A DNA stretch of 63,853 bases, the filler included, from Vicugna vicugna (Eukaryota), in NCBI GenBank assembly GCA_013265495.1. It is 73 parts of 72 records of this genome, joined end to end, with 100 filler letters (N's around TTAATTAATTAA, not from the genome) between each part and the next. Parts side by side here need not be neighbours in the genome. Positions count along the whole stretch, not along the records: positions 59,565 to 60,769 come from MU061350.1; 72 more parts are not named here. One strand, written 5' to 3'. Below the pieces are notes generated by a model. It searched no databases. It was given only the letters and a program-made list of their open reading frames with translations, and was not told where the DNA came from. The position numbers and the translations under genes were made by a program. Of the stretch, positions 4,033 to 60,869 are shown in pieces; within the stretch, counting starts at the first letter, position 1; every line of letters begins with the position of its first letter.

Positions 4033-6292
4033 NNNNNNNNNNNNNNNNNNNNNNNNNNNNNNNNNNNNNNNNNNNNTTAATTAATTAANNNNNNNNNNNN
4101 NNNNNNNNNNNNNNNNNNNNNNNNNNNNNNNNATGTTTTCTACATTTTCCACCGTGTGTATGCACTACTATATAATATGAAAAAGCAAATGTTTAAAAGA
4201 GAATATCTCTCTTCTCCGGATATGATTTGGTTAGAGGATGAGTCAGATACATATAATAAGAGAACCTTGAATACATGTGTCCATAATTCACTCTTTAAAT
4301 TCAGGAACAGAAAACTCAGGAATGAAATAGATTAAGAGAATCAAAGATACTTGTATTCAAGATTAGCAAGTAGGAATGTCCTCAACAGAAATGGTTATAA
4401 TCTATAATTCAGGGATTAAATGTGATAATGAAGGTACAAAGACAACATGAAGTAGAAAATGCCACGTGGCAAGCACTGAGTAAAGGGCAATTTACTATGA
4501 TTATGCCAATATGTTTGGTCAATTCCCAAGCAAATGATTGTGTAACCCCTGCTAGAGGGAGAAAGCTTCCAGCCTTGGCTGGAGAGGGGGGAGGATTCAC
4601 TGTCTGTATTTTTTAAAATGTCTACAGGTGCTTCTCATGTGCAAATTGATATCCCTGCATGAGAACCATAACCCAACAGAAAACCCAAAAGACCGAGGAC
4701 AATGATGGGTAGACGACAGCCCAAGCTTTTCTGCCACAGATGAGTGGTTCCACTGAGGAAGACTGAGCAAGAGGCTCAGAGTCTTAGCTAAGGACAAGCA
4801 TGTCGGGACTTCTAATACGACCTAATGTCATCGATGGACATCGATGGGGGAGGGCAGTTCAGCACAAGAAGGGAGCGCCAGGTGAGTTAACATGGAAGTT
4901 TCATCCCGAATCCAAACCGTAATGGATTTGGGTCCCGGAGGGTTAAAGACCTGCTTCCCTGGGGCATGGACCGGATTCCACAAGAGGCTGAGACNNNNNN
5001 NNNNNNNNNNNNNNNNNNNNNNNNNNNNNNNNNNNNNNTTAATTAATTAANNNNNNNNNNNNNNNNNNNNNNNNNNNNNNNNNNNNNNNNNNNNGGTGGC
5101 AGGAGCTCCTGGACGCAGGGGGCCTCCTTTGTGCTTCCCTGCTGCACAGTGGCTCCTGGATTCGGGGGACGTGTGAGGCTGACGGGGCATTCGTTGCACG
5201 GTGCCAACTGAAAATGCCATCCTTTCATTGTATGATTCTGTAGTTGGACGTAACCCTTCCAAAATGAATCGCAAAATCATTTCTTTCCATTGCCAGATAA
5301 TGCAAATGTTCATCTTCTCTCTGATGAATATATAAAGGTTCCATGTGGGGGTGAAGTGATACTCAGTGGGGGTGACTTACTTAAAAATCCCTCATGTCAC
5401 CCGTAAACTGGAGATGGGGCACCAGCAAGGAGGTGACGTGAATAAAAGAGGGTTTACCGCATACAACCTGTGGGCTGCAGATTGTGAACGTAAACTGCAA
5501 GTGTGACAGTCCCCTCCCCTGGTAAATAAGTCTTCGGTTGGCCACATAGAGTCATCACTTCTTAGTTTGCTTCTTATTCTGGCGTTCTGTTATGTTAGTT
5601 ACACAACACTTCATTCAGACGCTGACACTACAACAGAAGTGCCCCCATGGACACATAGTCACAATGTCATTTTAGGGACAGCGGCTTGCACCTGGGGGTC
5701 TGGGGGTTTTTCATGAACTCCTGTAACGTTGAGATCCACTTTGTGCCCAGGGTTAGGCTTTGCTGTTGGAATGGACANNNNNNNNNNNNNNNNNNNNNNN
5801 NNNNNNNNNNNNNNNNNNNNNTTAATTAATTAANNNNNNNNNNNNNNNNNNNNNNNNNNNNNNNNNNNNNNNNNNNNCACTGAGTGGAGGTTGTTTGCTT
5901 CTGCCACATACTTGGTGGCACTACCTCCTGTGACCACTTTAAAATAAGTGATCACTTTGTGGGTTTTCACACCACACATGTCCAGAGTGATCAGGAGTCC
6001 TCCGGCAGCCAATAGCTGTCACTCTTCTAGATTCCTGCTTTCTCTTTGTCTAAACTCTAAGCATCTGTCTTTTTCTTTATCAGCTCATGGATGCATAAGA
6101 TGTAATTTAATTTGTTATTTGGATTTTAAATTGTTTTTTGAAGGGAAGATTGTTCAGGGCATCTAGTCTGCCACATAGTCAGATTTAGAACTTTCTACTC
6201 TTGGCTAGAATGTGAAACTATGTGAAAAAATTTCCTGGTGTGTGTGACTTACGTAATACAGATTCTTTTTGTATTTCTTTGTCTTTTTCTAG

Positions 6293-6346
6293 GGTGATCG
6301 TGGAGTCCCAGGGTCATCTGGAGAAAAAGGAAACAGGGGAAATTGG
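6293..6346 (+). CDS. Single 54-nt collagen triple-helix exon (GDRGVPGSSGEKGNRGNW)
   Basis: Polypyrimidine tract plus AG at 6291-6292, six perfect Gly-X-Y triplets in phase 0, GTAAAG donor at 6347; 54 nt is a canonical collagen exon size. Confidence 0.88.
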
Positions 6347-6747
6347 GTAAAGTGTGAGAAGATTCTTCTCCCACATCTCTCAGATTCTTGCTGCAGAAAC
6401 TGACCTGGACAGCTTATTTCTAAGCTCTGGGAAAGCGTCGTCTGGTAGCACTAGTACTGGGTTGGGAGTGAAAGGGTGATAAATATTAGATTAGTCTTTG
6501 GAACTTCTACTTAAGGCCTGACTCTGCTGATAGTGAAATGGGTCTTGGGAACCAGCTTACTTAACCTTTTGTGCTTTATCATGGGTGTCATTCCCTTTTG
6601 CACAAGCTTTTCATGGCTTCCTGTCACCAGTGATGTAGTCTGACACGNNNNNNNNNNNNNNNNNNNNNNNNNNNNNNNNNNNNNNNNNNNNTTAATTAAT
6701 TAANNNNNNNNNNNNNNNNNNNNNNNNNNNNNNNNNNNNNNNNNNNN

Positions 6748-20170: not shown

Positions 20171-20577
20171 GAGCGCGCAGCCGCACAGCGCAGCGGAGCT
20201 ACCGGCGGCGCAGGCGGAGGGAGAGCGGCCCCCCGCCCCCCGCCTCAGGTGCTGGGAGGGGGCACGACCCGCCCTCCTGCCTGGCCAGTCTGCAACATCT
20301 GACTGCAGCATCCGGAGGGGCAGTGACCCGCACGCCCACAGCAGAGGAGAGCTGCATCTGACCCCGTGTTAGGAGGAGGCGCGATNNNNNNNNNNNNNNN
20401 NNNNNNNNNNNNNNNNNNNNNNNNNNNNNNNNNNNNNNNNNNNNNNNNNNNNNNNNNNNNNNNNNNNNNNNNNNNNNNNNNNNNNNNNNNNNNNNNNNNN
20501 NNNNNNNNNNNNNNNNNNNNNNNNNNNCTTTCGTTTTTGTTTTTTTTTGTTTGTTTGTTTGTTTTTTGTTTTGTTCT
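20171..20577 (+). mobile_element. CpG-rich repeat followed by T-rich tract, probable LINE-1 5' UTR (copy 1, internal deletion)
   Basis: Near-identical to 36969-37236 and 54166-54400; GC-rich block then T-rich tract, as in cetartiodactyl L1 5' UTRs. Confidence 0.7.
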
Positions 20578-24663: not shown

Positions 24664-25209
24664 CGGGACAGTGTTGGACCTTGGAGGCCACAGGGCAGGG
24701 TGACCACCTGCGGCATTTCCTGACACCCGGGTCTCAGAGGGACTGGGGTCCTGGGGTGAGGGGCGGGGCCTCGGGTGGCCAGACTAGCGGACATGACGCC
24801 TAAGTGACGACCCTGAGGGAGAACTGAGGGGTCCCCGAACCCGGAAAAGAGGCCATCCCACAGACAGGGAACCTTGCTAGCAGCTGTCCGGAGGCCCGAG
24901 GGCAGGACAGGCCCACGTGTTGTGCCCTGACTGCGGCACCCTGGCCTCAGAGAGACCGGGGACTTAGTGTGAGATGGCGGGGAACCCTCAGATCTGCAGA
25001 GGAGAGAATCCCACGTTCCACTGGGAGTGAAGGTGAAGAACGCGAGCGAGCAGTGAGGGACCCTGGACCCCAAAACACAGTCGGTCCTGGGAGGTCATGG
25101 GGCGGGAATTTCCTGACTCCGGGTCTCAGAGGGACTGGGGTCCAGGGATGAGGGGCGGGGCTTCGGGGGTCCAAGGGGAGGCTACATGCCGCCTGAGTGA
25201 AAGTGAGGA
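24664..25209 (+). promoter_or_regulatory. GC-rich internally repeated region resembling MAGE-family upstream/first-exon repeats
   Basis: 393-bp repeat (TTTCCTGAC at 24716 and 25109); GC boxes at 24760-24769 and 25152-25161; GACCCTGAGGGAGAACTGAGGGG, CTCAGATCTGCAGAGG and GGAGTGAAGGTGAAGA resemble recalled MAGE upstream units; no coding exon present. Confidence 0.6.
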
Positions 25210-29432: not shown

Positions 29433-30373
29433 NNNNNNNNNNNNNNNNNNNNNNNNNNNNNNNNNNNNNNNNNNNNTTAATTAATTAANNNNNNNNNNNN
29501 NNNNNNNNNNNNNNNNNNNNNNNNNNNNNNNNTTTTAATTTTTAAACTATTTTAAATTTTGTAACTTTTTTTAAACTTTACTTTTTTTCTTATAATCCTT
29601 CATTTTAGATTCCAGAAAACTGCTCTTCTGCCCACCGCATCCAAGTTCCCTTTCATTGTTTCTCCTCCCTTCCCTAACCTTCCTTCTCTTACCCTTATTA
29701 CCAAGTTTCTGTCCATTCTCTTTATAGGGCAGTTAAATTATTTTTTCTTTCTTTCTTTCTTTCTGTTTTTGCAGAGTGAACACCTTTGCGTGTCAGTGTG
29801 TCCTCCCACATTTCTTCATAATGGCTTCAACTTTCAGCTTCAGTATGGATTACTGGGGTCTGTCTCGAAACAAAGGCATTTCCCTTGTCCCCCAGCTCAC
29901 CACGCCCCTCAAAAAAAAGATTCTGATCTTCGCTGTGAAATGAATCTTCTTTTTCCCTACTGTGCAGTAGACAACACTTACCCTGAGCTCACAGTCAGAT
30001 ATTTCCAGAGGAGTAAAAGTAGGTCATGTGCAAATAATACTACTTTTCTCTGTGAAAAGATATAGGGTCAGATAGAGGAAATACTTAACTCAGATTACTC
30101 AAAAACATTTCCTGAATAAGTAAATTATTTAACACTAAATTTTGTTGAATCTGGTTATCCGTGAGCTATTTTTACCAATCAAGAAGGATATATTTCCTAA
30201 ACTGATACTGAGCAATTCATGTGAAATGAAACTTGCTCACATGAGCTAGTTTAAAGTAAAGGATGCATTATAGNNNNNNNNNNNNNNNNNNNNNNNNNNN
30301 NNNNNNNNNNNNNNNNNTTAATTAATTAANNNNNNNNNNNNNNNNNNNNNNNNNNNNNNNNNNNNNNNNNNNN

Positions 30374-36968: not shown

Positions 36969-37470
36969 CGCAGCCGCACAGAGCAGCGGAGCTACCGGCG
37001 GCACAGGCAGGGGAAGAGCGGCCCCCCGCCTGTCGGGCAGGAACAAAACTCCTGACCGAGGTGCTCGGAAGGGGCACGACCCGCCCTCCTGCCTGGCCAG
37101 TCTGCAACATCTGACGGCGGCATCCGGAGGGGCAGTGACCCGCCCGCCCGCAGCAGAGGAGAGCTGCATCTGACCCCGTGTTAGGAGGAGGCTCGATCTG
37201 CTTGCCGACAGGTGCTGGGAGCAGCACAGAAGAGGGNNNNNNNNNNNNNNNNNNNNNNNNNNNNNNNNNNNNNNNNNNNNNNNNNNNNNNNNNNNNNNNN
37301 NNNNNNNNNNNNNNNNNNNNNNAGAAACCCCGAACCCCCCTTTTTTTTTTTTTTTTGGTTTTTTTTGTTTTGTTTTCTTTTTTTGTTTTTTTCTTTTCTG
37401 TTTTTGTTTTTGGTTTTTTTTTTTGATCTGTTTTTACCTGTTCTATTTTCAATTACTCTCTTAATTTTTA
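36969..37470 (+). mobile_element. Probable LINE-1 5' UTR (copy 2)
   Basis: CpG-rich block shared with 20171 and 54038 copies, followed by a long T-rich tract. Confidence 0.72.
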
Positions 37471-50169: not shown

Positions 50170-50702
50170 ATGTGGAGGTGGAGGAGGATGTGGAGGAAAA
50201 TGTGGAGGAGGAGCAGGAAGTGGAGGAGGAGGTGGTGGAGGAGAAGGAGGAAGTCGAGGAGGAGGAGGATGAGGAGGAGGATGTGGTGGAGGAGGATGTG
50301 GAGGAGGAGGAGGTGGAGGAGGAGGGGGAGGAGGGTGAGGAGGAAGCGGAGGAGGAGGAGGGGGGGGANNNNNNNNNNNNNNNNNNNNNNNNNNNNNNNN
50401 NNNNNNNNNNNNNNNNNNNNNNNNNNNNNNNNNNNNNNNNNNNNNNNNNNNNNNNNNNNGGAGGAGGAGGGAGGAGGAGGAGGAGGAGGTGGAGGAGGAG
50501 GTGGAGGAGGAGGAGGTGGAGGAGGTGGAGGAGGAGGTGGAGAAGGTGGAGGAAGAGGTGGAGGAGGTGGAGGAGGAGGGGAGGGGGGAGGGGGGGGAGG
50601 GGGAGGGGGAGGAGGGGGAGGAGGAGGAGGAGGAGGAGGAGGAGGGGGAGGAGGTGGAGGAGGAGGTGGAGGAGGAGGTGGAGGAGGAGGAGGTTGTGTT
50701 GT
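50170..50702. repeat. Degenerate (GGA)n purine-rich tract
   Basis: GAG/GTG/GAT triplets with very few C residues. Confidence 0.95.
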
Positions 50703-53438: not shown

Positions 53439-53604
53439 AGCTCCCAAGGACCAGACTCACTATGGGAACAAACTAGCCATGAAGGTGTTCTTCCAGTCTG
53501 TCAACTACTATGCCCCGTGTTCCTACATCACATTATTTAAGGGCAGATTTGTGACTTATCCGGGAGATCTGGTGTATTGGCTGTGAAAATACAGAAATGA
53601 AGAG
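53439..53604 (+). pseudogene. ANO6: Disabled ANO6 (TMEM16F)-like internal exon, transmembrane region
   Basis: With one frameshift reads ELPR[fs]QTHYGNKLAMKVF-FQSVNYYAPCSYITLFKGRFVTYPGDLVYWL*KYRNEE versus recalled ANO6 [57 protein letters not shown]; CAG acceptor 53436-53438, GT donor 53605, TGA at 53584-53586. Confidence 0.9.
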
Positions 53605-53705
53605 GTGTGAATACAGCTTTGTGTTCTGACATTCTAACCTGTTTCATGTTTTCTCTTAGTTCCCCAATGAAGAGTGTCTTTACTCTCTGTTCCTAGTTAA
53701 TTCCG

Positions 53706-53931
53706 ACTCAGTCATGTGATCTTGGGGTGAGAATGGCCCAACCATCCACGTCATTTTCCTGCGTGCCCATCTCTAAAACTGGGGAGACTCTCTGCTTAGT
53801 AATGCTCTCCACATAACATACATGTTACTTCCGTGAGTACTCAGTCATGTGATCTTGGGGTGAGAACGGCCCACCCATCCACGTCATTTTCCTGCGTGCC
53901 CATCTCTAAAACTGGGGAGACTCTCTGCTTA
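53706..53931. repeat. 93-bp direct duplication (MIR-like sequence), period 133
   Basis: 53706-53798 is nearly identical to 53839-53931. Confidence 0.9.
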
Positions 53932-54037
53932 TCTTATNNNNNNNNNNNNNNNNNNNNNNNNNNNNNNNNNNNNNNNNNNNNTTAATTAATTAANNNNNNN
54001 NNNNNNNNNNNNNNNNNNNNNNNNNNNNNNNNNNNNN

Positions 54038-54485
54038 CCACAAAGACAAACAAGCAGCTGGGTCTTGGCTCGGAGCAGGGACGAGGCTGCCCCTCGGTCT
54101 TCCCCGAGCCCACCAGCGGAGCGCGACCAGGGCGGAGCGCCGGCCAGGGCGGAGCGCCGGCGCAGAGCGCAGAGCCGCACAGAGCAGCGGAGCTACCGGC
54201 GGCGCAGGCAGGGGGAGAGCGGCCCCCCGCCTGTCGGGCAGGAACACAACCCCTGACCGAGGTGCTGGGAGGGGACACGACCCGCCCTCCTACCTGGAAA
54301 GTCGGCAACATCTGACTGCGGCATCCGGAGGGGCAGTGACCCGCCCGCCCGCAGCAGAGGAGAGCTGCATCTGACCCCGTGTTAGGAGGAGGCGCGATCT
54401 GCTTGCCGAGAGGTGCTGGGAGCAGCACAGAAAAGGGCGTCAATGGAGGGCCTCTGAAAACAAGCTGAGCTTCCAAAACAGGACG
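54038..54485 (+). mobile_element. Probable LINE-1 5' UTR (copy 3, longest CpG-rich part)
   Basis: Shared with 20171 and 36969 copies; local CCAGGGCGGAGCGC duplication. Confidence 0.72.
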
Positions 54486-55363: not shown

Positions 55364-55545
55364 NNNNNNNNNNNNNNNNNNNNNNNNNNNNNNNNNNNNN
55401 NNNNNNNTTAATTAATTAANNNNNNNNNNNNNNNNNNNNNNNNNNNNNNNNNNNNNNNNNNNNTACCCCCCTCATTCCTACTACTTCTAGCATCATCCAT
55501 AGTTGAAGTCGGGGCAGGCATTGGTTTAACTGTTTACCCTCCCCT

Positions 55546-56218
55546 AGGAGGGTAGGAGGAGGTGGAGGAGGAGGAGGATGTGGAGGAGGATGTGGAGGAG
55601 AAGGATGTGGAGTAGGAGGATGAGGAGGTGGAGGAGGAGGTGGAGGAGTAGGAGGAGGTGGAGGTGGAGAAGCAGGTGGTGGATGAGGAGGAGGTGGTGG
55701 AGGAGGAGGAGGNNNNNNNNNNNNNNNNNNNNNNNNNNNNNNNNNNNNNNNNNNNNNNNNNNNNNNNNNNNNNNNNNNNNNNNNNNNNNNNNNNNNNNNN
55801 NNNNNNNNNNNNNNNNNNNNNNNNNNNNNNNNGGAGGAGGAGGAGGATGTGGAGGAGCAGGAGGATGTGGAGGAGGAGGACATGGAGGAGGAGGCATAGG
55901 TGGCAAGGTAGGAGGAAATGTAGAGGAGGAGGTGGAGGAGGAAGAGGAGGTGGAGGAGGAATAGAAGGTGTAGGAGGAGGAGCTGGAGGAGGAGGAGGAG
56001 GAGGATGTGGAGGAGGAGGATGTGGAGGAGGATGTGGTGGAGGAGGAGGTGGAAGAGGAGGAGGTGGAGGCGGAAGAGAAGGTGGAGGAGGAGGAGCTGG
56101 AGGAGGAGGAGTAGGAGTAGGTGGAGGATGAGGAGAAGGAAGTGGAGGAGGAGGATGAGGTGGAGGAGGAGGTGGAGGAGTTGGAGGAGGAGGAGGAGGA
56201 TGTGGAGGAGGAGGATGT
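55546..56218. repeat. Degenerate (GGA)n tract with unique left flank
   Basis: Same GAGGATGTGGAG motif as 50170-50702. Confidence 0.95.
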
Positions 56219-59464: not shown

Positions 59465-59943
59465 NNNNNNNNNNNNNNNNNNNNNNNNNNNNNNNNNNNN
59501 NNNNNNNNTTAATTAATTAANNNNNNNNNNNNNNNNNNNNNNNNNNNNNNNNNNNNNNNNNNNNACATGAGGTGCTTTATTTCAATTCTGCAATTTGACT
59601 TACACCATGGGAAGGGAAAGCTACCTTGCAGATCCTGGAGCTCACAAACCTGTTAACCCTGAATTTTTTTTAACACTGTGCCTTACTTGATACTTGATCT
59701 GAGAAAGGATGAAGTAAACCTAAAAATGTTCTAAGAGAGCGTGTGGTTTATACAAGGTAACTAACCCGCCACTGTTTACTATCCTAACAGGGATCTGTAG
59801 GCATATTTCTTTTCTTTCTCTTTTTTCCTTTTTATGGGCAGCTTTTAAAAACCAAATCAAACCAACCAAACCAAATCACTGATAATTCAACAGCAGGTTC
59901 TAAATCACCCCCAAGACAGCAGCTAAACTCGGTTTAGACTTAC

Positions 59944-60167
59944 AATGCGGTTTCTGGTGGTTGGATTGAACAATGTATCTCTATCCTGAATATAAAAGTC
60001 ACTCACGGAGCTCTTCTCAAATAGGTCAATGAAAAGCTCTTGTTCCGGTTGTTGATACTTTCATCCACTTGGAGGACTTTCATAAAACATCTGAAGTTAT
60101 CAGAGGCTGAGGACCGGGTTTTCAGATCATTGGGCTTCAGAGGCAATATTATGTGCAGTATCTCAGC
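59944..60167 (-). pseudogene. ANO6: Disabled ANO6 (TMEM16F)-like exon, N-terminal cytoplasmic domain (5' part lost in gap)
   Basis: Reads AEILHIILPLKPNDLKTRSSASDNFRCFMKVLQVDESIN[fs]PEQELFIDLFEKSSVSDFYIQDRDTLFNPTTRNRI versus recalled ANO6 AEIMHIKLPLKPNDLKNRSSAFGTLNWFTKVLSVDESIIKPEQEFFTAPFEKNRMNDFYIVDRDAFFNPATRSRI; GTAAGT donor at 59943-59938; 1-nt deletion near 60049. Confidence 0.92.
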
Positions 60168-60869
60168 NNNNNNNNNNNNNNNNNNNNNNNNNNNNNNNNN
60201 NNNNNNNNNNNNNNNNNNNNNNNNNNNNNNNNNNNNNNNNNNNNNNNNNNNNNNNNNNNNNNNNNNNNNNNNNNNNNNNNNNNNNNNNNNNNNNNNNNNN
60301 NNNNNNNNNNNNNNNNNNNNNNNNNNNNNNNNNNNNNNNNNNNNNNNNNNNNNNNNNNNNNNNNNNNNNNNNNNNNNNNNNNNNNNNNNNNNNNNNNNNN
60401 NNNNNNNNNNNNNNNNNNNNNNNNNNNNNNNNNNNNNNNNNNNNNNNNNNNNNNNNNNNNNNNNNNNNNNNNNNNNNNNNNNNNNNNNNNNNNNNNNNNN
60501 NNNNNNNNNNNNNNNNNNNNNNNNNNNNNNNNNNNNNNNNNNNNNNNNNNNNNNNNNNNNNNNNNNNNNNNNNNNNNNNNNNNNNNNNNNNNNNNNNNNN
60601 NNNNNNNNNNNNNNNNNNNNNNNNNNNNNNNNNNATCTGTACAATGTTAAATTAACATTAAAAGGGATTTAAAAGATTTATATTTATTCATATGGAATGT
60701 ATAATAAAAGGAGAAAGCAAAGACATGTGAAATAATAATTTTCCTTTTTGGAAGGGAAAAATATCTTCANNNNNNNNNNNNNNNNNNNNNNNNNNNNNNN
60801 NNNNNNNNNNNNNTTAATTAATTAANNNNNNNNNNNNNNNNNNNNNNNNNNNNNNNNNNNNNNNNNNNN

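What the first reader, a model, noticed from the sequence alone, without database searches (positions are those of the whole stretch)
59938..60167. Decayed, intron-flanked ANO6 exon (N-terminal): sign of a duplicated scramblase locus
Seen: a minus-strand frame with one 1-nt deletion gives about 74 residues ending at a perfect GTAAGT donor; the ORF track shows only the half before the frameshift. Known: the peptide matches my recollection of ANO6/TMEM16F, the Ca2+-activated phospholipid scramblase, normally single-copy and conserved in mammals. Inference: retained splice junction plus frameshift and many substitutions indicate an unprocessed (DNA-duplicated) pseudogene, not a retrocopy or the functional gene. 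Two different ANO6 exons among 73 apparently unrelated unplaced scaffolds would be unlikely for a single extra copy, so a multi-copy ANO6-derived amplicon is plausible.
Basis: partly seen in the sequence, partly recalled or inferred. Interest (0 to 1): 0.8.

Follow-up and report, generated by a model that had tools for sequence, protein, structure and literature searches.

The report
Amplified dead ANO6 fragment in camelids
This is one broken copy out of dozens of a duplicated piece of the ANO6 membrane-protein gene in camel-family genomes; the break also occurs in annotated camel copies, so it is an old, much-copied pseudogene and neither a new gene nor an assembly error.

Summary
Confirmed, and stronger than reported. 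The minus strand at 60167-59944 encodes ANO6 residues 125-199 with a 1-nt deletion and ends at a GTAAGT donor. The frameshift is real: Bactrian and dromedary 'anoctamin-6-like' models read through the same shifted frame to the same stop, and about 98-99% of contig depth in two DNA runs carries the window's alleles beside the break. Those runs lay 550 and 365 contigs on 603 bases, which points to roughly 40-100 copies (rough estimate). The window groups with truncated ANO6-like models from alpaca and camels (support 98/95), apart from the parent gene. Eight of 41 such models begin with a KLHL2 exon, and intact-frame sibling copies appear spliced in one probable RNA run. Best reading: a neutrally decaying mosaic segmental duplication older than the camel-alpaca split. 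This scan already found the ANO6 family on other DNA (three notes). I found no paper on it. The KLHL2 piece and the frameshift shared with camel models are added here.

The parts
59944..60167 (-). 3' part of a decayed ANO6 N-terminal exon (alpaca ANO6 residues 125-199; 'exon 5' is recalled human numbering); 1-nt deletion near 60048-60050; shifted frame stops at 60005-60003; 5' end hidden in an N gap
   Evidence: 18 of 74 residues differ from alpaca ANO6
59938..59943 (-). Splice donor GTAAGT
   Evidence: contigs of run X15 leave the stretch at this donor into a spliced exon (table 7)
59720..59943 (-). Retained 224-nt GT-AG intron between the two ANO6 exons
   Evidence: covered in all bins by DNA contigs of X1 and X2
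59604..59719 (-).
59598..59603 (-). Second splice donor GTAAGT
60635..60769 (-). AT-rich 135-nt piece upstream of the gap in the same scaffold, presumably upstream intron
   Evidence: position only; not compared with the parent locus
53439..53604 (+). Separate scaffold: decayed internal ANO6 exon (residues about 568-624), CAG acceptor and GT donor kept, 4 nt short, one stop
4628..4763 (+). Separate scaffold: paralogue of a non-ANO6 (cryptic) exon used by wild-camel ANO6-like model P0068; AG acceptor in the right phase; two stops here
   Evidence: 84% over 45 residues, E 4.6e-20
29775..29889 (+). Separate scaffold: paralogue of a cryptic exon used by alpaca ANO6-like models P0007, P0008, P0064, P0066, P0176; AG acceptor in the right phase
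   Evidence: 76% over 41 residues, E 1.4e-14

Best explanation
A non-functional, unprocessed ANO6 pseudogene fragment: one member of a camelid mosaic segmental duplication. Inferred history: (1) in the camelid stem lineage a large genomic piece of ANO6 was copied with its introns and joined behind the 5' end of KLHL2; (2) freed from selection, it gathered about seven amino-acid changes shared by nearly all copies; (3) one lineage acquired the 1-nt deletion seen here; (4) that already-broken lineage was copied to dozens of loci by DNA-level duplication, probably with some gene conversion between copies; (5) a minority of intact-frame siblings are still transcribed and spliced through cryptic exons into short chimeric RNAs. 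This copy can make no scramblase. Shown: gene identity, intron, lesions, shared frameshift, many copies, KLHL2 exon in sibling models. Inferred: order of events, amplification mechanism, neutrality, KLHL2 promoter use, chromosomal setting.
For: Two collinear exons with a GT-AG intron and both donors. The window and 10 other truncated models (9 named camelid, 1 unnamed) lie on one side of a 98/95 branch against 11 true ANO6 rows. ANO6 of alpaca, dromedary and wild camel are identical over these 75 residues and differ from pig, muntjac and whales by 2, while the copies differ from the parent by 10-18. Bactrian P0116 and dromedary P0179 read the same shifted frame (12 and 13 of 15 residues) to the same stop. 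In DNA runs X1 and X2 the other allele holds 0.7-1.8% of depth at 60043 and 60052, which flank the break, and the intact-frame insertion under 0.5%. 550 and 365 contigs lie on 603 bases; one diploid locus gives 4-6 in simulation and 365-550 needs about 16-75 loci. Mean depth per contig reaches 6,811 (X1) and 2,511 (X2) against 44.6-64.3 and 21.9-28 for long diverged contigs, i.e. about 90-150 allele-equivalents. Models lie on 6 different contigs in alpaca, 5 and 6 in two dromedary record series, 4 in wild camel. 8 of 41 truncated models examined carry a KLHL2 N-terminal exon (60-83% identity), in alpaca, wild camel and dromedary, among them frameshifted P0179. All 7 listed exonic sites where the window differs from the majority of X1/X2 depth are non-synonymous. 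4 of 73 scaffolds in this window match the family.
Against: No genome was held, so copies were not counted directly, the unit length is unknown, and the parent intron was not aligned. The read tool warns that contig depth is no copy number, and it silently drops human-like records, which may remove parent-like contigs; single-copy depth was not measured independently. Short contigs with the insertion may be clipped instead of gapped. Nine rows of the variant table were not shown. The window differs from the majority of both runs at 9 listed sites and the best run holds only 0.55 of its words, so these runs are not the window's animal and may not be its species. The KLHL2 link is shown only for sibling gene models, not for this scaffold; no KLHL2 exon was found in the window. 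No dN/dS could be computed. The tree rests on 75 residues.
Confidence: 0.87

Rival explanations
1. The family is partly functional: intact-frame siblings make KLHL2-ANO6 chimeric RNAs or a soluble ANO6 N-terminal fragment that modulates ANO6 or acts as a regulatory RNA; the window copy is dead debris of that family.
For: Many models keep this exon open in alpaca and three Camelus species. Two contigs of run X15 leave the donor into an exon that I translated by eye to the C-termini of models P0009/P0114/P0178 and P0010 (table 7). In X19 the one contig across the break carries the intact frame (table 4). RefSeq lists several isoforms for one wild-camel locus.
Against: Only open copies get annotated, so openness is selected for by the search. 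Intact copies differ from the parent by 10-17 of 75 residues where orthologues differ by 0-7. Downstream exons are skipped or out of frame and differ between models. X15 is only guessed to be RNA, and X19 contigs also cover the whole intron, so DNA or unspliced RNA is present.
Confidence: 0.08
2. A single extra ANO6 pseudogene, or a handful, fragmented over unplaced scaffolds; the high contig counts are artefacts.
For: No direct count was possible; the depth argument uses unnamed runs and an assumed single-copy level.
Against: Hundreds of contigs in two runs of two organisms, per-contig depth about 100-fold above the lowest diverged contigs, simulation, and distinct annotated loci on many contigs.
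Confidence: 0.03
3. The true ANO6 gene with assembly errors, or a unitary loss of ANO6.
For: Small gapped scaffolds are error-prone; at 4 listed sites (59612, 59623, 59680, 60002) neither DNA run shows the window's base, so some bases could be errors.
Against: 18 of 74 residues differ from camelid ANO6; the derived residues are shared with the truncated models; the frameshift recurs in camel models and in most contig depth; ANO6 proteins open over this region exist for alpaca and wild camel.
Confidence: 0.01
4. A processed retrocopy of an incompletely spliced ANO6 RNA.
For: The retained intron is short (224 nt), and short introns can persist in retrocopies (general knowledge).
Against: Intron sequence also follows the second donor, and another exon with its own acceptor, donor and downstream intron lies on a second scaffold; sibling models are multi-exon.
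Confidence: 0.01

Closest known systems
ANO6 / TMEM16F (Ca2+-activated phospholipid scramblase; PDB 6P46, 8SUN; alpaca XP_031538722.1)
   Same: Parent gene: residues 125-237 and 568-624 are recognisable, with splice signals at the positions expected from the junctions in sibling models.
   Different: Frameshift in each of three exons, one in-frame stop, 18 of 74 residues changed in the main exon; only fragments; many copies.
NCBI camelid 'anoctamin-6-like' / uncharacterized models (e.g. C. bactrianus XP_074203014.1, C. dromedarius LOC105104373, C. ferus LOC116661728, V. pacos XP_072813592.1, XP_031527483.1)
   Same: Same family: shared derived residues; the first two share the window's frameshift and stop.
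   Different: They are automatic gene models, most with this exon open; none found is identical to the window copy.
Alpaca pseudogene-rich repetitive blocks (NEK10-like, ATF5, FMN2-like, ABHD17A-like; PMC13751797)
   Same: Multi-copy, fragmented gene pieces in a camelid genome, attributed to segmental duplication followed by decay.
   Different: ANO6 and KLHL2 are not among the genes named there (0 hits for ANO6 or anoctamin in the main text and the readable supplement). Those blocks are reported absent or reduced in camel assemblies, whereas this family is annotated in all three Camelus species and on many contigs.
Primate mosaic pericentromeric segmental duplications with fusion transcripts (recalled, no paper read)
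   Same: Intron-bearing pieces of different genes joined, spread to many loci, giving chimeric transcripts.
   Different: Independent camelid origin; no evidence here of a selected, functional core; chromosomal position not testable.

Membership tests
Unprocessed (duplicated) pseudogene | Homology to a parent protein-coding gene | tested here: met
Unprocessed (duplicated) pseudogene | Parental intron and splice sites retained | tested here: met
   224-nt GT-AG intron, two GTAAGT donors; intron not aligned to the parent locus
Unprocessed (duplicated) pseudogene | Disabling lesions that are real | tested here: met
   main frameshift shared with camel models and with contigs of two runs; the +2 in the A run is less well checked
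Unprocessed (duplicated) pseudogene | Working parent gene elsewhere in the same genome | tested here: inconclusive
   ANO6 proteins exist for alpaca and camels; the window's own genome was not held
Unprocessed (duplicated) pseudogene | Loss of purifying selection | tested here: inconclusive
   18 of 74 residues changed against 0-7 among orthologues; 7 of 7 listed exonic window-versus-majority differences non-synonymous; no dN/dS
Processed pseudogene (retrocopy) | Introns removed | tested here: not met
Functional ANO6 / TMEM16F | Open reading frame through the N-terminal domain | tested here: not met
   stop 15 codons after the shift
Mosaic segmental duplication | Many copies at 90% identity or more | tested here: met
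   529 of 550 (X1) and 358 of 365 (X2) laid contigs are 90% or more alike; depth ratio
Mosaic segmental duplication | Copies on different chromosomes | tested here: met
   sibling models on several chromosome-sized contigs per species; the window scaffold itself is unplaced
Mosaic segmental duplication | Pieces of different genes joined in one unit | tested here: inconclusive
   KLHL2 exon in 8 of 41 sibling models; that KLHL2 and ANO6 are normally unlinked is recalled; no genomic junction seen
Mosaic segmental duplication | Unit longer than 1 kb; pericentromeric or satellite-flanked position | not testable with these tools
   scaffold has 738 called bases; joins between scaffolds are artificial
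Alpaca pseudogene-rich satDNA blocks (PMC13751797) | Absent or much reduced in camel assemblies | tested here: not met
   family annotated in dromedary, Bactrian and wild camel; copy numbers per species not compared
Alpaca pseudogene-rich satDNA blocks (PMC13751797) | Gene fragments interleaved with discontinuous satellite arrays over megabases | not testable with these tools
   no assembly held

The most novel reading that the evidence does not exclude
The amplicon holds a camelid-specific chimeric gene: the KLHL2 promoter and first exons drive spliced transcripts of the ANO6 cytosolic N-terminal domain from intact-frame copies kept in both camels and alpaca, and the product (short protein or RNA) tunes ANO6 lipid scrambling, for example in camelid blood cells.
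Probability: 0.07. Interest if true: 0.72.

Novelty: new member of a known kind. Interest (0 to 1): 0.32.

Why it matters
Mostly practical and evolutionary. A family of some tens of ANO6-derived copies will confound ANO6 annotation, variant calling, copy-number and expression work in camels, llamas and alpacas, and it explains the scatter of 'anoctamin-6-like' gene models. It extends the recently described alpaca pseudogene blocks with a family that is present in camels too, so at least one camelid mosaic duplication is older than the camel-alpaca split. The shared frameshift is a marker for dating the amplification and shows that a dead copy was the one that spread. It would matter more if intact KLHL2-ANO6 copies proved to be selected and translated; nothing here shows that.

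Tried and rejected
No whole genome was held, so no direct copy count or parental intron alignment. Metagenome scans found nothing: 0 matches for a window motif across the frameshift and 0 of 397 pattern matches confirmed for the ANO6 alignment. All-against-all BLASTN of the 73 scaffolds found no second copy of this scaffold in the window. No KLHL2 exon in the window by TBLASTN with the KLHL2 proteins (best E 0.018). Pfam scans of all 258 stop-free segments of 38 or more residues from the 34 non-satellite scaffolds gave only the anoctamin hits plus three weak matches below their cut-offs (UPF0220, LIFR_N, Ribosomal_L44), taken as chance; no POFUT2 or TRAPPC9 piece was seen, but short exons would be missed. 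Rfam: 0 matches. Satellite scaffolds next to the finding were rejected as evidence of position because the joins are artificial. Summed contig depth was not used as copy number; only per-contig means as a lower bound. The species of the window was not established; satellite primers were read but not searched. No structure or complex was predicted, since the copy has no open frame. Literature searches with no paper on an ANO6 duplication in camelids.

Full report
Setting. The window is 73 small scaffolds (250-1,590 bases for the inner ones) joined by a fixed N44-TTAATTAATTAA-N44 linker. Thirty-nine of them fall into four clusters of tandem-repeat DNA. Adjacency between scaffolds is therefore artificial. 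The finding sits in scaffold 59565-60769, which has 603 called bases, a 467-base gap and 135 more bases. No genome was held for this window. Protein hits show a camelid; I did not establish the species. Earlier scan notes call this genome a New World camelid, unchecked by me.

The observation. On the minus strand 60167-59944 is 224 nt where alpaca ANO6 residues 125-199 need 225. The frame before the break and the frame after it each hit only Anoctamin-6 among solved structures (8 of 8 matches each). Unshifted, the frame stops 15 codons after the break. GTAAGT follows at 59943. After a 224-nt intron ending in TTTTAG comes the next ANO6 exon, 59719-59604, 116 nt instead of 114 because of an A8 run, closed by a second GTAAGT. 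A third ANO6 exon lies on another scaffold at 53439-53604 with acceptor and donor kept, 4 nt missing and one stop. Against 20 shuffles of the scaffolds (best 28.5 bits) the two main exons score 57.8-75.9 bits; the halves of the short exon score 28.9-29.6, so that exon rests on position, splice signals and its match to alpaca model P0115.

Relatives. The closest proteins are not ANO6 itself but short camelid models named 'anoctamin-6-like' or 'uncharacterized': the top 10 of 60 hits, at 89% identity over the first half-exon against 82% for alpaca ANO6. A profile search added more. Over the 75 residues of the main exon, ANO6 of alpaca, dromedary and wild camel are identical, other mammals differ by 2-7, the camelid models by 10-17 and the window by 18. 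The window and 10 models form one side of a 98/95 branch against 11 true ANO6 rows (22 rows, chosen by me; the models were not added). Alpaca and Camelus models share the same derived residues, so the first duplication precedes the split of the two lineages, put at more than 11 million years in the abstract of PMC13751797.

The frameshift is real and shared. Bactrian model XP_074203014.1 (P0116) and dromedary LOC105104373 (P0179) run into the same shifted frame, match the window at 12 and 13 of 15 shifted residues and stop at the same codon; they are the only 2 stored proteins with this read-through. In DNA runs X1 and X2 (coded organisms A and B) the alternative alleles at 60043 and 60052, which flank the break, hold 0.7-1.8% of depth, and the insertion that would give the open frame under 0.5%. 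So most copies in those animals carry the window's broken form. Caveats: the tool drops human-like records, short contigs with an indel may be clipped, and 9 table rows were hidden. If the window is a New World camelid, the deletion itself is older than the camel-alpaca split; that step depends on the unchecked species call.

Copy number. X1 lays 550 contigs and X2 365 on the 603 bases, none spanning the stretch. In an error-free simulation one diploid locus gives 4-6 unitigs, and 365-550 need about 16-25 loci at 8% divergence, 25-45 at 4% and 45-75 at 2% (read off). Independently, mean depth per contig reaches 6,811 at 59792 in X1 and 2,511 at 59680 in X2, while long, clearly diverged contigs have 44.6-64.3 and 21.9-28: about 106-153 and 90-115 allele-equivalents, or at least about 45-75 loci if those low contigs are single alleles. 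Within the main exon alone the same ratio is 40-58. The tool states that summed depth is no copy number and single-copy depth was not measured, so 'roughly 40-100 copies' is an estimate. It agrees with earlier scan notes that counted 44, more than 40 and more than 50 copies, which I could not recount. In this window 4 of 73 scaffolds match the family: the two with ANO6 exons and two with paralogues of cryptic exons used by sibling models (4629-4763, 84% to P0068; 29776-29889, 76% to P0007/P0008).

A mosaic with KLHL2. The N-terminal part of wild-camel model P0010 hits only KLHL2 (39 of 39 hits). Eight of 41 records examined (40 truncated camelid models and one unnamed record) carry this KLHL2 exon, from alpaca, wild camel and dromedary, including frameshifted P0179. 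These are automatic models, but their agreement across three species suggests that the 5' end of KLHL2 was joined upstream of the ANO6 piece in the ancestral unit. No KLHL2 exon is in this window, and no earlier scan note held both 'KLHL2' and 'camelid'.

Transcription. The RNA or probable-RNA runs carry other alleles than the window's subfamily at many sites. Two contigs of X15 leave the stretch at the first donor into sequence that I translated by eye to the C-terminal exon of models P0009/P0114/P0178 and P0010 (table 7), i.e. spliced products of two sibling loci. In X19 the one contig across the break has the open frame. X15 is only guessed to be RNA and X19 also covers the intron, so this is a hint of transcription of siblings, not of the window copy, and gives no level or strand.

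Selection. All 7 listed exonic sites where the window departs from the majority in X1/X2 change an amino acid, as neutral drift allows (0.13 if three quarters of changes are non-synonymous) and constraint does not; some may be sequencing errors. Alleles are mosaic across models: the window shares its frameshift with camel models, two residues of the main exon with open-frame alpaca models (one also with a dromedary model), and two residues of the short exon with alpaca P0115 that are absent or nearly absent in X1 and X2. Gene conversion between copies or recurrent mutation would explain this; it was not tested.

Literature. PMC13751797 (seen: abstract, section 7, part 1 of 2 of Results and of Discussion, passages of section 14, the spreadsheet supplement with cells cut at 400 characters; the slide supplement and figures could not be read and could name further genes) describes pseudogene-rich blocks in alpaca with NEK10-, ATF5-, FMN2- and ABHD17A-like fragments, reported absent or reduced in camels; ANO6 and anoctamin occur 0 times. 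PMC6598621, PMC12351130 and PMC2873428 (passages by term search) do not mention ANO6. bioRxiv 10.1101/2025.08.28.672513 (part 1 of 2 read; supplements closed, and its CNV table could bear on this) names no ANO6 in what I read. Eight searches found no paper on an ANO6 duplication in camelids; the library lacks most subscription papers.

Verdict. It is a new member of a known kind, already annotated piecemeal and already noted by this scan on other DNA. Added here: the second exon and intron, the frameshift shared with camel models and with most copies, and the KLHL2 5' piece. A functional chimeric gene among the intact siblings is not excluded but has little support (0.07). Interest 0.32.

Noticed in passing
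window 1-63853: 39 of 73 scaffolds fall in four tandem-repeat clusters: 17 with a 267-bp unit, 6 with a 247-bp unit, 11 whose offset self-matches suggest a diverged unit of about 245 bp, and 5 with a 7/63/189-bp unit.
   Followed up: partly
window about 6293-6346 (+), scaffold 5878-6647: A 54-bp exon-like stretch between AG and GT that reads as Gly-X-Y repeats, like a collagen exon, seen by eye; gene not identified.
   Followed up: no
window 50170-50702 and 55464-56218: Two scaffolds of degenerate GGA repeats (proline/serine-rich on the minus strand); could relate to the FMN2-like fragments named in PMC13751797, untested.
   Followed up: no
window 24664-25209: GC-rich scaffold with an internal repeat that resembles MAGE-type 5' exons (recalled resemblance only).
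   Followed up: no
window 20171-20577, 36969-37470, 54038-54485: Three scaffolds share a GC-rich segment at 85-94% identity, possibly an L1 5' end; two have a T-rich stretch beyond a gap.
   Followed up: no
protein P0013 (unnamed record UPI00057B815C): A basal ANO6-like model one residue short at the site of the window's frameshift, yet lacking two derived residues common to the other copies; an annotation-corrected frameshift, an independent deletion or gene conversion could explain it.
   Followed up: no
proteins P0175, P0180-P0186: A second set of near-identical camel ANO6-like models, from more C-terminal exons, lies on six different contigs of one dromedary record series plus a wild-camel contig, another sign of recent amplification in camels.
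   Followed up: partly
window 53680-53937: A direct repeat of roughly 70-90 bp downstream of the second ANO6 exon, seen by eye.
   Followed up: no
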